Shown: in pieces, positions 2,297 through 6,426 of the stretch
How the letters are laid out: each line of letters begins with the position of its first letter
Numbering within the stretch: position 1 is the first letter of the stretch
From: a virus
Taxonomy: Duplodnaviria > Heunggongvirae > Uroviricota > Caudoviricetes
Reading direction: 5' to 3' (one strand)
IMG/VR virus record: IMGVR_UViG_2740892042_000001
Location: 1-37,911 of that record
Length of the DNA stretch: 37,911 nt
Made by a program: the position numbers and the translations under genes
The notes under the pieces: model-generated
Told to the model about the DNA's origin: nothing
What the model saw: only the letters and a program-made list of their open reading frames with translations
Databases searched by the model: none

Positions 2297-2578
2297 TTAA
2301 TCGTCAATGTATTTTGAGCATTGTGGGCAATCATCAATCCCACAATACGATTCATATGCATCCTTTATTGCGTCGCGGGCTTCAGTAAGAGTATTGAATA
2401 AGTTGCAGCTATTATCTTTTTGATATAGGTAAGTTCCTAATTTATAAGCAGAAGAAGCATCATTTCCGCTGTCTAAAATTACATCGTTATGGATTCTGCA
2501 CCTTGCAAGAACTCCTGATCCCATAAGGGTCTGCATAGCCCATTGCTCTTGATCTTCACACAAATCATGAATGCTCAT
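2297..2578 (-). CDS. Hypothetical Cys-rich protein (93 aa)
   Basis: Track ORF 2297..2596 begins at a GTG; internal ATG at 2578 has a GAGGTG RBS. Contains C-x2-C near the C-terminus (CGIDDCPQC); AT-rich upstream region 2600-2690. Confidence 0.5.
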   Translation of the reverse strand: MSIHDLCEDQEQWAMQTLMGSGVLARCRIHNDVILDSGNDASSAYKLGTYLYQKDNSCNLFNTLTEARDAIKDAYESYCGIDDCPQCSKYIDD

Positions 2579-2692
2579 TTCAACACCTCTCTTCACGTTT
2601 CACACACGTTAAGATTAACAGTGTTTTTACATGCTTTGGAAGATTTATTTTATAAAAACTCTTTTAATACAAATAGATATAATAGTTCACTA

Positions 2693-3256
2693 TTATAGCT
2701 CCTTTAATCGAGGCGGTTCTGGTAGTGGCATCCAGTGTGACGGCTCACATACCCCCTCAACACCATTCATGTAAAAGAATTGAAATAACCCTTTACCTTT
2801 GTGAAACCCTACCATCTGCTCTTTTGTGTCTGAGCAATAAACCAAAACATCTTCTTCGTTCGGCATTAGCTCACTACAGCTTATCCAACCATCCGGAGTT
2901 ACCGGAGAGTTGCCATTTACATCGAAGTTTGGCTCTGCGTCCTGAACCAGGAGGATGTAACCATTCTTGGCTGTATCAAGTTCTAACGCCTCGGTGACGG
3001 TGCCGAAATAGCGATTACCTAAATCAGCATCACAAGTGCTTACATCAATGGAAACTTCCATGCCTTCGATTAATTCTGGCAAGTTGTAAGTTTGGCTTAC
3101 AGGTTCTGCACTATCGGCTTCGCGCCGCTTCTGTAGCTCTGCTGCCATCGCTCTCACGACTTCAACTGGTGCCCTTGCAGCAAACTCTATGTTGGTGATC
3201 AGCTCATTAAGATATTGCTCGCTGGGATACTGTTTCTTATCGGTTAAAGGGGTCAT
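2693..3256 (-). CDS. DUF551-like phage protein
   Basis: C-terminal region (..GWISCSELMPNEEDVLVY..GFHKGKGLFQFF..HWMPLPEPP) matches my recollection of the DUF551 domain. Start set at MTPLTDKK (ATG 3256), 1 nt after the upstream gene's stop. Confidence 0.65.
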   Translation of the reverse strand: MTPLTDKKQYPSEQYLNELITNIEFAARAPVEVVRAMAAELQKRREADSAEPVSQTYNLPELIEGMEVSIDVSTCDADLGNRYFGTVTEALELDTAKNGYILLVQDAEPNFDVNGNSPVTPDGWISCSELMPNEEDVLVYCSDTKEQMVGFHKGKGLFQFFYMNGVEGVCEPSHWMPLPEPPRLKEL

Positions 3257-3956: not shown

Positions 3957-4248
3957 TGGTTGTCTCCCTTGCAGGGCTTTCGAATGTATCAAACTCAAAC
4001 AACTTAACCACGTCATCAAACAGGACATAATCGCCATCAGAATCTTCAGTCATGTCAGCGCCACAATCCTGACCGAACGAGTCACAACCATCCATATCAA
4101 GCTCGTATCGCTTGAGTTTTGCGACATTTGATAAACTCAGCGCCAGTACAGCAAGGTCATAAACCTCATCAGCGGTATACCCGGCACCATGCCCATACAT
4201 TTCAATACGCGATATGATTTCTTCTACCCGTTGTTTTGTGATTGTCAT
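3943..4248 (-). CDS. Hypothetical acidic early protein (101 aa)
   Basis: Clean ORF, overlaps neighbours by a few nt (operon-like packing). Confidence 0.5.
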   Translation of the reverse strand: MTITKQRVEEIISRIEMYGHGAGYTADEVYDLAVLALSLSNVAKLKRYELDMDGCDSFGQDCGADMTEDSDGDYVLFDDVVKLFEFDTFESPARETTSEQD

Positions 4249-4748
4249 TTTTGCTCACCTCCTTTTCGAAGCTGGGCGGCGAAGCATCTTGCCGCTCTGG
4301 CTGTCTCTTTCAAGACTTCTGTGTACTCGTCATCGAATGGGTCTATACTTTTGATATTGAATTCGGCGAAGTCTTCCAGTGCCTTAGCGCCGCCCTGCGC
4401 ACGTACTTCAGCCAGGAAAGCGTCGGTGGCTGGGGTGTCTGATTGCAGAGACTTTGCGCGATAGTCATTCCACCCTCTTGCATACATGGGATTAACTTGC
4501 ACTCCATCTTTTACGCAATATGCCTGCCCTCCACGGTTGATAACCTTGATTTCGTCCATAGCGCCAGACTTCAGCCCCGCATTCTCCGCTGCCAGCGCCG
4601 CGTACTTGGCCTCCGCTTCAGCAAATTTACGCACCAGATATTCAGCGTTTGTTTCGTTAACCTTTAAATCACTTGGGATGCATTTACCTTTCAGAAATCC
4701 ATCCATCTCAATTAGTGACATTTGTTTCATTTCTTCCCACTCCGCCAC
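4245..4748 (-). CDS. Hypothetical early protein (167 aa)
   Basis: Clean ORF; ATGA-type overlap with the downstream gene. Confidence 0.55.
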
Positions 4749-4924
4749 ATCGCATTCAGATATTTGTTGTCATTAACAGAACCGAAACTCTTTCTCTTAA
4801 GCAATTCCTCTCTCGATGGCATTGGCTTTACGCGTTGGCGAATAATCATTTCTGCCGGAAGAATGCCGGGATTGTATGCAAGTCCTCTCATGGTAAATTC
4901 CTCAGTCATTACTGATAGCGCCAT
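4727..4924 (-). CDS. Hypothetical small protein (start uncertain)
   Basis: Track ORF 4727..5044 overlaps the upstream gene heavily; internal starts at 4924 or 4909 are more plausible; no strong RBS. Confidence 0.3.
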
Positions 4925-5198
4925 AGCGTGAGCGGTAATTACGCAGGCGCGGGTCGATATATTCAGGGAAGTGGGTATATGTGGCTTTGCGGAATGGTCG
5001 GATTGATGTCTGGTAAATTCGCTCGCGCTCTTCTTTCTCTGCAAGCCATATACAGTGGCGAAATTCCTTTTCCTCTTTCGTTTCCTGCGGTAGCGACATT
5101 ATCAGGTCGTAGTTTTTTCTGAATTTATCCAGCACCTCCGATACGGAATTGCCGGAACAGCGGCGCGGGTCATCCGCACCATACTGAGGCGCTGGCAT
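4902..5198 (-). CDS. Hypothetical early protein (98 aa)
   Basis: ORF with AGGAG RBS before ATG 5198; immediately downstream of ssb. Confidence 0.5.
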
Positions 5199-5211
5199 GA
5201 TTTTCTCCTGA

Positions 5212-5718
5212 TTAAATTGCGTGAATAGCGTGACGAGGGAAGGGGAGAGTTACTGGTGCAAAGGGTATATCGTCGTCAAAATCCATCGGAGGTTCGTTGT
5301 GTTGTGCTGGTGATGATTGCTGCTGTGGCTTCTGTGATTGCCTGCTGGCTGCTTGTTGTTTGCTGTCGCCAATGCCGCCAAGCATCTGCATCACGCCATT
5401 AATTCCGACATGAACCTCGGTTGTGTAACGGTCTTGCCCTGACTGGTCTTTCCACTTTCTGGTTCTCAGCATTCCCTCGAAATAAATCTGATCACCTTTT
5501 TTCACATACTGCCCCACGACCTCAGCCAGTTTCCCGGATACAGCAACACGATGCCATTCAGTCAATTCCTTTTGCTCGCCAGTATTTTTATCTCGCCATT
5601 GTTCTGACGTGGCTATTGTCAGGTTAGCGAACGCTGTTCCTGATGGTGAGTATCGAACTTCCGGGTCTTGTCCTACCCGACCAAGGATAATCACCTTATT
5701 TACGCCTCTGCTTGCCAT
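5212..5718 (-). CDS. ssb: Single-stranded DNA-binding protein (SSB) with C-terminal extension
   Basis: N-terminal OB-fold region near-identical in pattern to E. coli SSB ([41 protein letters not shown]..); Q-rich linker; canonical ..[12 protein letters not shown] tail present but followed in frame by 15 more codons. Confidence 0.9.
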
Positions 5719-6426
5719 TTATGCCGCCTGTTTTAGTTCGTTAACTCTGATGTTCATTACCTGAACGCATTTAGCCTGCGCTTCCTCGTTGCCAGCCATT
5801 AATTGCCAGTCACGCTGATAACGCTCGATGAGTTTTTTCTTGTCAGTTTCTGTTGACGCATAATCGCTGAAGTCTTTCAGGATTTGTTCGCAGTCAACCG
5901 ATGGAGATTTCTGGTTGGTATTTTCTGGTGATGGTTTGTTATCTGATGCTGGGATTGCCCATCCCGGAAGCGATGGAGGGAGCCAGTAAAATCCTGTTCC
6001 ATCCTTCAGTTTTGCCCTGTGCCACCCCTGCTTTTTATCGAGAGATGTTTGTGCGAAACCTTCCTCAAGGTTATACAGATACCGACCGATTCCCCACTGA
6101 ACGGCAGCGCGCTTCATTGCACCGGAACGACCACCTTTGACGGCTTCTACCTGCGTGTTTTCAGCAGCATCCCATTTGGTTACCCATTCGGAATCAATCT
6201 TTATTGATATGCCGCATTCAACGCCGCCGTTGTTGGGAATATCGCGGTATTCATTGCGCCATCCTGCTTTGCCGCAAACATCGTCCAGGCGTTTCATGAT
6301 TGCCCGGTTCGTGACATAAGCCAGCACCATAGCCCACACCTTGCCATCGCGTGTTTTACCGCTTTGCTGTATTCGCCATTCGATATCTTCAGGGCTGAAT
6401 GGCTCATCGAATTTGTTCAAATCCAT
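5719..6426 (-). CDS. Rad52/Rad22-family single-strand annealing recombinase
   Basis: Motifs ..GGVECGISIK..KGGRSGAMKRAAVQWGIGRYLYNLEEGF.. characteristic of phage Rad52-like SSAPs; sits directly upstream of ssb (SSAP+SSB module). Confidence 0.8.
   Translation of the reverse strand: MDLNKFDEPFSPEDIEWRIQQSGKTRDGKVWAMVLAYVTNRAIMKRLDDVCGKAGWRNEYRDIPNNGGVECGISIKIDSEWVTKWDAAENTQVEAVKGGRSGAMKRAAVQWGIGRYLYNLEEGFAQTSLDKKQGWHRAKLKDGTGFYWLPPSLPGWAIPASDNKPSPENTNQKSPSVDCEQILKDFSDYASTETDKKKLIERYQRDWQLMAGNEEAQAKCVQVMNIRVNELKQAA

What the first reader, a model, noticed from the sequence alone, without database searches (positions are those of the whole stretch)
5212..5262. SSB whose DDDIPF tail is internal: 15 extra codons before the stop
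Bacterial and phage SSBs end in an acidic tip (..DDDIPF) whose free C-terminal Phe binds partner proteins. Here the reading frame continues past ..MDFDDDIPF through [15 protein letters not shown] before a TAA. If real, the tip is masked, which would alter host-partner interactions. It could also be a stop-codon loss or an assembly error.
Basis: partly seen in the sequence, partly recalled or inferred. Interest (0 to 1): 0.55.

Follow-up and report, generated by a model that had tools for sequence, protein, structure and literature searches.

The report
Phage SSB with a capped acidic tip
This prophage's single-stranded-DNA-binding protein really does carry 15 extra, evolutionarily conserved residues after the normally terminal DDDIPF tip; the same kind of cap is widespread but apparently undescribed in phage and plasmid SSBs, and probably changes which proteins they recruit.

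Summary
The minus-strand ssb gene (5212-5718) encodes 168 aa ending ...[26 protein letters not shown].

It is not an error or a recent stop-codon loss:
- The exact protein is phage HK75 gp31 and occurs on at least 1000 public contigs.
- 297 of 5426 complete E. coli genomes carry the tip-plus-extension DNA.
- 48 distinct DNA versions keep the peptide under purifying selection.

The same 15-residue tail occurs on at least two non-homologous ssDNA-binding scaffolds, beside three recombinase families, and on IncN conjugative plasmids. Other host clades have their own caps: Pseudomonas APLHHLAGA, Rhizobiales APEWR. About 30% of sampled viral FDDDIPF proteins are capped.

AlphaFold2 places the tail in a disordered region. 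No solved structure contains it, and I found no paper describing it.

In Sf6-type phages an HNH homing endonuclease gene sits exactly between tip and extension. That yields a canonical SSB and an endonuclease carrying the orphaned tail.

Function is inferred, not shown. The cap removes the free carboxylate that canonical host partners need and adds a clade-specific docking peptide, which amounts to a specificity switch for mobile-element SSBs.

The parts
5212..5718 (-). ssb gene, 168 aa plus stop, of the 'SSB-1' type found in HK75-type lambdoid recombination modules
   Evidence: ORF list. Pfam PF00436 E=1.6e-36 and PHROG 44. 100% identical to HK75 gp31 ADO67658.1 and RefSeq WP_000168274.1.
5380..5718 (-). 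OB-fold ssDNA-binding core (about residues 1-113)
   Evidence: In the AlphaFold2 model, 10-residue block mean pLDDT is 73-87 over residues 11-100, with strands E9-114 and helix 63-71. It aligns to E. coli SSB structures 1eyg and 1sru over residues 1-115.
5293..5379 (-). Intrinsically disordered Q/P-rich linker (about residues 114-142)
   Evidence: pLDDT about 30-44. Sequence and length vary among homologues.
5260..5292 (-). Canonical acidic tip [11 protein letters not shown] (residues 143-153), here internal
   Evidence: Identical to the last residues of E. coli SSB. pN 0.057 across 48 unique DNA tails, with DDDIPF invariant.
5215..5259 (-). 15-residue C-terminal cap [15 protein letters not shown] (residues 154-168), the feature in question
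   Evidence: Read directly from the sequence. Conserved as [AS]P[VI][TG]L[PQM][FY]P[RS]H.I[HY].[ILV]. pLDDT about 32, so disordered.
5212..5214 (-). TAA stop codon of ssb
5199..5211 (-). 13-nt spacer TCAGGAGAAAATC holding the ribosome-binding site of abc2. The same stop-plus-spacer follows the orphaned tail in Sf6 and Huey.
4902..5198 (-). abc2, anti-RecBCD protein 2 (98 aa), the downstream gene of the module
   Evidence: Pfam PF11043 E=3.5e-62 and PHROG 656.
5719..6426 (-). Rad52/Rad22-family single-strand annealing protein (235 aa). Its stop abuts the ssb start.
   Evidence: Pfam PF04098 E=5e-26 and PHROG 1097 'Erf-like'. Its C-terminal ~60-aa module ending ELKQAA is shared with ERF-core annealases.

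Best explanation
The gene is an intact, functional allele of a large class of mobile-element SSBs. In this class the canonical acidic tip is followed by a short, selected, disordered peptide cap.

Shown:
- The cap is real and ancient.
- It is under purifying selection.
- It is portable between unrelated ssDNA-binding scaffolds.
- It is specific to the host clade.
- Within E. coli it is confined to accessory elements.

Inferred:
- The cap puts Phe153 in a peptide bond. That removes the free alpha-carboxylate which canonical SSB-interacting proteins (ExoI, RecQ, PriA, chi, RecO, RecG and others) anchor with a basic lip. ssDNA coated by the phage SSB should therefore recruit those host enzymes poorly.
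- The tip itself is still strongly conserved. It probably still serves contacts that do not need the carboxylate, such as the annealase C-terminal domain or the SSB's own OB fold.
- The conserved cap supplies a second docking peptide for a partner not yet identified.
- The same cap sits beside Rad52/22, ERF and Sak4-type recombinases and on IncN plasmids, which share no obvious partner gene. The partner is therefore more likely host-encoded.

The net effect would be a specificity switch. It marks mobile-element ssDNA as different from host ssDNA and channels it into the element's own recombination or replication pathway.
For: Real and common:
- Identical in HK75, mEpX2 and mEp235 whether the downstream gene is abc2 or an inserted exonuclease.
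- Seen on at least 1000 contigs.
- The tip-plus-extension DNA is intact in 297 of 5426 complete E. coli genomes, at 1-4 places in each genome that has any. It therefore belongs to accessory elements, not to the housekeeping ssb.

Selected:
- Extension positions 6-15 give pS 0.64 and pN 0.25; the tip gives pN 0.057.

Disordered linear motif:
- pLDDT is about 30 for residues 114-168.

Portable:
- The same tail occurs on PF00436 scaffolds only 25% identical to each other, and on PHROG 743 proteins with no Pfam hit.
- Upstream recombinases belong to Rad52_Rad22, ERF or AAA_24.
- The IncN conjugative plasmid pTR4 SSB ends [22 protein letters not shown].

Clade-specific:
- 12 Enterobacterales loci are type A, 26 Pseudomonadaceae loci are APLHHLAGA-like or APISRLLLNII, and 9 Rhizobiales loci are APEWR-like.

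Frequency:
- 36 of 120 sampled viral FDDDIPF proteins are extended.

Carboxylate requirement:
- PMC10164576 describes the basic lip that anchors the alpha-carboxyl group as one of the most important contacts.
Against: - No binding, genetic or structural test was possible here, and the partner is unidentified.
- Clade specificity could reflect shared ancestry of mobile-element gene pools rather than co-evolution with a host protein.
- Near-identical Rad52/22 annealases pair with capped and uncapped SSBs, so the cap is not needed for that pairing.
- Sf6-type phages are viable with an uncapped SSB, so the cap is modulatory, not essential.
- If the only role were to block the carboxylate, any extension would do. 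The strong sequence conservation would then be unexplained.
- AlphaFold2 gave no hint of intramolecular docking.
Confidence: 0.5

Rival explanations
1. Sequencing or assembly error, or a recent stop-codon loss in this genome. The extension would then be meaningless read-through.
For: A 15-codon run to the next stop is about what chance gives after a lost stop. That is arithmetic, not a tool result.
Against: The identical protein is in independently sequenced phages and on at least 1000 contigs. 48 distinct DNA versions encode the same peptide with excess synonymous change. It is present across genera and on plasmids.
Confidence: 0.01
2. Neutral scar. The ancestral arrangement was ssb ending DIPF* followed by an HNH endonuclease gene. 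Deleting that gene fused ssb in frame to the last 15 codons of the endonuclease.
For: In Sf6, Huey and L004-L006 the HNH ORF ends ...PDE[EA][14 protein letters not shown]. The tail DNA and following spacer match the window exactly in Sf6 and Huey and differ at a few synonymous positions in L006. In Huey the spacer after the ssb stop resembles the spacer after the tail.
Against: Homologues of this HNH family elsewhere align only to residues 1-137 and lack the tail. The cap occurs in SSBs of many genera, on other scaffolds and on IncN plasmids with no HNH gene nearby. It is under purifying selection in the SSB context. HNH-bearing alleles have altered tip codons (NFDDSDIPF, NFDDEIPF), as expected for a homing endonuclease gene (HEG) inserted into, and made immune to, a capped target.
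Confidence: 0.04
3. Turnover tag. The cap is a C-terminal degron with an adaptor site, comparable in length to the 11-residue ssrA tag. It would keep mobile-element SSB, and the HNH nuclease that inherited it, short-lived so that they do not compete with host SSB after the early phase.
For: The tail is disordered and C-terminal. Type A caps end in non-polar residues preceded by a basic residue or His (...PRHAIHAI), loosely like the MuA ClpX signal ...RRKKAI; that comparison is from memory. A 588-member Salmonella cluster lacks one HAI unit yet still ends ...RHAI. Fusion of the tail to a potentially toxic HNH nuclease is tolerated.
Against: Caps of other clades end in R, G, E or GA (APEWR, APLHHLAGE, APLHHLAGA), unlike known ClpXP or Lon C-terminal signals. 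A degron explains neither the near-universal Ala-Pro straight after Phe nor the very strong retention of the tip.
Confidence: 0.12
4. Pro-tail. The cap is removed by a protease cutting Phe153|Ala154, exposing a canonical tip only at the right time or place.
For: The tip stays as conserved as in housekeeping SSB. 'AP' follows Phe in 22 of 36 extended viral tails across alpha-, beta- and gamma-proteobacterial hosts, as a shared cleavage context might. In IncN plasmids the neighbour of ssb is a SprT-family metalloprotease.
Against: No protease with this specificity is known to me. Phage loci have no conserved protease neighbour. 14 of 36 extended tails lack AP.
Confidence: 0.08
5. A specific version of the docking idea. 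Residues P-V-T-L-P-F would act as a beta-clamp-binding hexapeptide (compare Hda QLSLPL and Pol IV QLVLGL), tethering or blocking the host sliding clamp on phage ssDNA.
For: The pattern x-[VI]-[TG]-L-[PQM]-[FY], with L invariant and F/Y in 45 of 48, fits Q-L-x-L-x-[LF] at positions 2, 4 and 6. The motifs are recalled from memory. Type D caps AP[AV][WR]LI resemble C-terminal pentapeptide motifs.
Against: The otherwise typical Gln is an invariant Pro. The clamp cleft is conserved across proteobacteria, yet Pseudomonas and Rhizobiales caps (APLHHLAGA, APEWR) do not fit the motif. This was not testable here.
Confidence: 0.07

Closest known systems
E. coli housekeeping SSB (PDB 1eqq, 4mz9)
   Same: It has the same PF00436 OB-fold core. 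phmmer aligns query residues 1-153 to the whole E. coli chain with E=6.6e-58. It also has a disordered linker, and its last 13 residues [13 protein letters not shown] are identical to the phage tip.
   Different: In E. coli SSB, Phe is the last residue and its free carboxylate is a key contact for partners (PMC10164576). Here 15 more residues follow. No solved SSB chain has such a tail.
'SSB-1' of lambdoid Rec modules, HK75 type (Abc2 + SSB + annealase), as classified in Genome Res 2025, PMC12315714
   Same: The window protein is 100% identical to HK75 gp31 and sits in the same gene order: annealase, ssb, abc2.
   Different: That paper says these SSBs have not been studied experimentally. In the passages I retrieved it does not mention the C-terminal cap.
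Sf6 gp27 (SSB) plus gp26 (HNH endonuclease)
   Same: It has the same module and a homologous SSB. The last 14 residues of gp26 equal the window's cap, and the DNA is identical through the abc2 start. The GenBank note on gp26 already records 14 residues shared with an 'E. coli SSB'.
   Different: In Sf6 the SSB ends at ...NFDDSDIPF* and the cap is on the endonuclease. The window has the uninterrupted allele.
HK620 SSB (HhaK, 'SSB-2') and its annealase Sak4 (PMC5928155)
   Same: It is a phage SSB in a Rec module. Its C-terminal six residues are needed to stimulate the cognate annealase. Proteins of a Sak4-associated scaffold (PHROG 743, possibly the HK620 type; homology to HK620 SSB not tested) carry the window's tip plus cap in Citrobacter phage Omnitron and IMG/VR contigs.
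   Different: HK620's tail ends at the tip-like motif NDYPPF, with no cap. Its fold is not PF00436.
Conjugative-plasmid SSBs
   Same: These are also mobile-element copies of SSB. The IncN pTR4 SSB carries the same cap.
   Different: Most sampled plasmid SSB hits, largely 60-200 kb E. coli and Salmonella plasmids, align only as far as the terminal Phe.
Bas52_0087, a phage SSB-like trigger of DRT10 (bioRxiv 10.64898/2026.04.29.721553)
   Same: It is a phage ssDNA-binding protein bearing an FDDDIPF motif. The authors propose that it perturbs the host SbcB/SSB interplay.
   Different: It has a two-OB-fold architecture. The preprint does not discuss residues after the motif.

Membership tests
Bacterial/phage homotetrameric SSB (Pfam PF00436) | N-terminal OB-fold ssDNA-binding domain | tested here: met
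   PF00436 E=1.6e-36 over residues 6-104. The AlphaFold2 OB fold has 10-residue block mean pLDDT 73-87 over residues 11-100. phmmer gives E=6.6e-58 to E. coli SSB 1eqq.
Bacterial/phage homotetrameric SSB (Pfam PF00436) | Disordered Gly/Gln/Pro-rich linker | tested here: met
   Residues 114-142 have pLDDT about 30-44. The region varies among homologues.
Bacterial/phage homotetrameric SSB (Pfam PF00436) | Acidic tip motif D-D-D-I-P-F | tested here: met
   [11 protein letters not shown] occupies residues 143-153 and is identical to the E. coli tip.
Bacterial/phage homotetrameric SSB (Pfam PF00436) | Tip Phe is the last residue, with a free alpha-carboxylate for partner docking | tested here: not met
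   15 residues follow Phe153. The requirement is described in PMC10164576.
Bacterial/phage homotetrameric SSB (Pfam PF00436) | Tetramer formation and ssDNA binding | not testable with these tools
   This needs biochemistry. Only a monomer model could be made.
HK75-type lambdoid recombination module (anti-RecBCD + SSB + annealase) | Contiguous annealase, ssb and abc2 genes on one strand in the early-left operon | tested here: met
   Rad52_Rad22 is at 5719-6426, ssb at 5212-5718 and Anti-RecBCD_p2 at 4902-5198, all on the minus strand. The order is the same as in HK75. The class is defined in PMC12315714.
Homing-endonuclease-split ssb (Sf6/Huey type) | HNH endonuclease gene inserted between the tip codon and the cap codons | tested here: not met
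   The window reads straight from TTT (Phe) into GCA CCA with no insert. Sf6, Huey and L004-L006 have the insert.
Beta-clamp-binding motif (QLxLx[LF] or QL[SD]LF) | Gln at position 1 and hydrophobic residues at positions 2, 4 and 6 | tested here: inconclusive
   PVTLPF fits positions 2, 4 and 6, but position 1 is an invariant Pro. Caps of other clades do not fit. Binding could not be tested.
ClpX-type C-terminal degron | Non-polar last residues with a free carboxylate that confer protease-dependent turnover | not testable with these tools
   Type A caps end [HY]A[ILV], but other clades end in R, G or E. Turnover has to be measured.

The most novel reading that the evidence does not exclude
A quarter to a third of tip-bearing phage SSBs, and some plasmid SSBs, form an unrecognised class of 'capped-tip' SSBs. 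In this reading the clade-specific cap is a second short linear motif. It hijacks or excludes a particular host genome-maintenance hub, so that mobile-element ssDNA is biochemically distinguished from host ssDNA. The strong pull of HNH homing endonucleases to the tip-coding DNA would be a by-product of that conservation.
Probability: 0.3. Interest if true: 0.8.

Novelty: new variant of a known kind. Interest (0 to 1): 0.62.

Why it matters
The textbook rule for bacterial-type SSBs is that the last residue, Phe, with its free carboxylate, is the docking handle for more than a dozen replication, repair and recombination enzymes. Here that handle is internal, yet both it and the added peptide are kept by selection. 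The same pattern recurs across phages of at least three proteobacterial clades and on IncN plasmids.

If the cap rewires partner choice, several things follow:
- It would explain how mobile elements keep host nucleases and helicases off their ssDNA intermediates, or recruit one chosen host factor.
- It would matter for recombineering design, where compatibility between the SSB tail and the annealase is used as a selection criterion.
- It would bear on defence systems that sense phage SSBs.
- It would give peptides of known sequence for direct binding screens.

It also means that annotation pipelines labelling these proteins simply 'ssb' hide a functional distinction.

Tried and rejected
- Assembly error or stop loss: rejected.
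- Junction artefact with the downstream gene: rejected. ssb is 507 nt whether abc2 (HK75) or an exonuclease (mEpX2) follows.
- Overlapping RNA or regulatory element: there are no Rfam hits in the window, no promoter-like site, and only one weak terminator-like site outside the feature. Synonymous sites are not conserved.
- The cap as the docking site for the adjacent annealase: not supported. A 92%-identical Rad52/22 protein pairs with an uncapped SSB. The shared annealase C-terminal module occurs with 46 capped and 10 uncapped SSBs, 7 of the latter without any HNH split.
- A conserved phage neighbour as partner: upstream and downstream genes are diverse, with 35 and 53 clusters.
- The cap folding back on the OB fold: AlphaFold2 leaves residues 114-168 at pLDDT about 30.
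- The cap motif in non-SSB proteins: in 3.0 Mb of fetched loci the only cases are the HNH ORFs of L004-L006.
- Literature: seven full-text searches (and one for the string IPFAP) found no description of the extension.
- Solved structures: none contains it.

Full report
**What is there**

The minus strand of 5212-5718 holds a 168-codon ssb gene. Pfam PF00436 matches residues 6-104 (E=1.6e-36) and PHROG 44 matches the whole protein.

The protein ends ...[30 protein letters not shown]. The Phe codon is at 5260-5262, the 15 extra codons are at 5215-5259 and TAA is at 5212-5214. The 13 residues before the extension are identical to the C-terminus of E. coli SSB.

The gene lies between a Rad52/Rad22-family annealase (5719-6426) and abc2 (4902-5198). 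This is the 'HK75-type' lambdoid recombination module described in PMC12315714. That paper notes these SSBs have not been studied experimentally.

**Not an artefact**

- The protein is 100% identical to gp31 of phage HK75 and to RefSeq WP_000168274.1 in an E. coli chromosome.
- The exact sequence was recorded on at least 1000 contigs.
- The ssb ORF is 507 nt both in HK75, where abc2 follows, and in mEpX2, where a 3'-5' exonuclease gene follows. The extension is therefore not produced by a particular junction.
- A 96-nt query spanning tip and extension is intact in 297 of 5426 complete E. coli genomes. Genomes that have any copy hold it at 1-4 places. It therefore belongs to accessory elements and not to the housekeeping ssb.

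**More than chance**

A 15-codon run to the next stop is unremarkable in itself. The signal is conservation.

- Most of the 120 best database homologues have a 15-residue tail of the form [AS]P[VI][TG]L[PQM][FY]P[RS]H.I[HY].[ILV]. They come from Escherichia, Salmonella, Klebsiella, Citrobacter, Enterobacter, Kluyvera, Pluralibacter and Phytobacter. The Q-rich linker in front of the tail differs freely.
- From 75 loci I obtained 48 distinct DNA versions. Extension positions 6-15, which my search pattern did not constrain, give pS 0.64 and pN 0.25. The tip region gives pS 0.94 and pN 0.057 (an earlier estimate is).
- Synonymous sites are close to saturation, so conservation is at the protein level. 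It is not due to a DNA or RNA element. Rfam, promoter and terminator scans also found nothing at the site.

**Anatomy**

AlphaFold2, run with a 49-sequence alignment, gives a confident OB fold. Residues 114-168 have pLDDT about 30. The cap is therefore part of the disordered tail, that is, a short linear motif. No solved SSB chain extends past the tip.

**Breadth**

I scanned IMG/VR for DDDIPF followed by [AS]P. The scan hit its 120-locus limit, and the hits fall into families:

| Family | Cap | Loci |
|---|---|---|
| Type A | AP[VI][TG]L..., 15 aa | 58 |
| Type B | AP[LMV]H[HY]L[AN]G[A...] | 37 |
| Type C | APEWR(G) | 6 |
| Type D | AP[AV][WR]LI | 5 |
| Others | various | 13 |

- An unbiased scan for FDDDIPF returned 120 loci. 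Of these, 84 stop at Phe and 36 continue; 22 of the 36 continue with [AS]P. The sample is arbitrary and redundant, so 'about 30%' is rough.
- In one-genome-per-species contigs the cap type partitions cleanly by host. All 12 Enterobacterales are type A-like. All 26 Pseudomonadaceae are type B or APISRLLLNII. All 9 Rhizobiales are APE[WVTL]R(G). One MAG labelled Pseudolabrys carried a type B cap.
- Type A relatives with a conserved first half (APIGLQ[YH]P) extend to Rheinheimera, Idiomarina, Colwellia, Pseudoalteromonas and Oceanisphaera.

**Portability**

- The type A tail sits on the window-type PF00436 scaffold and on a PF00436 subfamily only 25% identical to it. It also sits on 243-aa PHROG 743 proteins with no Pfam hit, for example in Citrobacter phage Omnitron.
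- Other cap types sit on PHROG 9002 and on Gp2.5-like PHROG 112 proteins.
- Upstream recombinases of type A loci belong to Rad52_Rad22 (23 loci), ERF (7) and AAA_24/Sak4 (6). Downstream genes are diverse.
- The IncN conjugative plasmid pTR4 encodes an SSB ending [22 protein letters not shown]. Most other sampled plasmid SSB hits align only as far as the terminal Phe.

**A natural 'uncapping'**

The only places where the cap motif is not preceded by a tip are ORFs downstream of short SSBs.

- In Sf6, Huey and loci L004-L006, ssb ends ...NFDD(S/E)(D)IPF*. An HNH endonuclease gene follows, and that ORF ends ...PIYPDE[EA][14 protein letters not shown].
- In Sf6 and Huey the tail DNA and the spacer to abc2 are identical to the window; L006 differs at a few synonymous positions and is followed by a different gene.
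- The GenBank note on Sf6 gp26 already remarks on 14 residues shared with an 'E. coli SSB'.
- Homologues of this HNH family in 559 phage records mostly align only to residues 1-137, including intron-encoded I-KsaII. Several lie next to ssb genes.
- In Vibrio phage D182 the SSB ends DFDDDRS* just before such an HNH gene.

I conclude that this homing-endonuclease family targets the conserved tip-coding DNA. The Sf6-type short SSB is derived from a capped allele like the window's, and the window has the uninterrupted allele. This disposes of the opposite idea, that the cap is a scar left by loss of an endonuclease gene. It also shows that phages can live with an uncapped SSB.

**What it probably does**

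Published work states that SSB-interacting proteins bury the terminal Phe, bind the Asp residues on a basic ridge, and anchor the alpha-carboxyl group on a basic lip. The last is described as one of the most important contacts (PMC10164576). A peptide bond after Phe153 removes that carboxylate.

My best reading is a specificity switch:

- Canonical host partners are recruited poorly.
- The still-conserved tip keeps contacts that do not need the carboxylate.
- The cap adds a docking peptide for a further partner.
- The same cap serves phages with three recombinase families and also IncN plasmids, so a host partner is more likely than a phage one.

All of these steps are inference. I could not run complex predictions or any assay.

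Against a link to the neighbouring annealase:

- A 92%-identical Rad52/22 protein pairs with an uncapped SSB.
- The annealase C-terminal module, shared by Rad52/22-core and ERF-core proteins, occurs with both capped and uncapped SSBs.

The rivals I keep open are a turnover tag, a cleavable pro-tail, and a clamp-binding-like hexapeptide. Each has the specific weaknesses listed under the rival explanations.

**Known or new**

Seven literature searches and several papers read in part did not turn up any description of residues following the tip. The papers were PMC5928155, PMC12315714, PMC10164576, PMC13490951 and two bioRxiv preprints.

The library lacks most subscription journals, so absence is not proof. 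I rate this a new variant of a known kind: a bona fide SSB whose defining C-terminal rule is broken in a conserved, widespread way.

**Verdict**

The error explanation is refuted. The 'masked tip' idea is plausible but unproven and, on its own, incomplete.

The window's gene is an ordinary member of a common class, so it is not unique. The class itself appears to be unrecognised and is directly testable.

Noticed in passing
L354 (Sf6) 383-1345; L352 (Huey) 383-1327; L006 1880-2826: An HNH endonuclease gene lies exactly between the SSB tip codon and the cap codons, so the endonuclease ORF ends with the SSB cap [14 protein letters not shown]. Tip codons in these alleles differ (NFDDSDIPF, NFDDEIPF), as expected for immunity of the homing site.
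   Followed up: yes
L355 (Vibrio phage D182) 1101-2155: The SSB ends ...DFDDDRS*, so the tip is broken after DDD. A homologue of the same HNH family follows 84 nt later. Several other phages also annotate this endonuclease next to ssb. This suggests repeated homing into tip-coding DNA.
   Followed up: partly
window 5719-5900 (C-terminal ~60 aa of the annealase); L046, L021 and L103 upstream genes: Rad52/22-core and ERF-core annealases share a homologous C-terminal module (IL.EF.DYA...W..L.G....KC..V...R..ELKQAA). A domain has evidently been shuffled between unrelated annealase cores. It occurs with both capped and uncapped SSBs.
   Followed up: partly
L010 (Citrobacter phage Omnitron) 1853-2584: A 243-aa PHROG 743 ssDNA-binding protein with no Pfam hit sits after a Sak4-like ATPase and ends ...[27 protein letters not shown]. 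This is the same tip plus cap on a different scaffold.
   Followed up: partly
L351 (IncN plasmid pTR4) 2005-3353: The plasmid SSB carries the type A cap. Its convergent neighbour is a SprT-family zinc metalloprotease, near anti-restriction genes. Whether the protease acts on the SSB tail is unknown.
   Followed up: no
P0001 (Salmonella, 588-member cluster): The cap is 12 residues ([12 protein letters not shown]), one HAI unit shorter than [15 protein letters not shown]. This is consistent with slippage between the tandem CACGCnATT repeats. The C-terminus is still ...HAI.
   Followed up: no
L231-L350 (genome contigs): Other host clades have their own caps after DDDIPF: Pseudomonas APLHHLAGA and APISRLLLNII, Rhizobiales APEWR, Psychrobacter APHFDGQF, Paenalcaligenes APLLARCEYVI, Gallionella AP.GK.GAGVSW.AM. 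Many end in an aromatic residue followed by one to three residues.
   Followed up: partly
L082 and L107 (IMG/VR): T7 Gp2.5-like proteins (PHROG 112) end ...[13 protein letters not shown] family whose own C-terminal Phe is considered critical thus also occurs in capped form.
   Followed up: no
L003 (E. coli EC23HZZ201, 100% identical over the 701-bp ssb query, window 5100-5800) 2556-3182: RefSeq marks the ead/Ea22-like gene downstream of abc2 as an N-terminally incomplete pseudogene in this prophage. The matching window stretch lies roughly between 4110 and 4740 on the minus strand, spanning the GTG-start ORF at 4245-4748.
   Followed up: no
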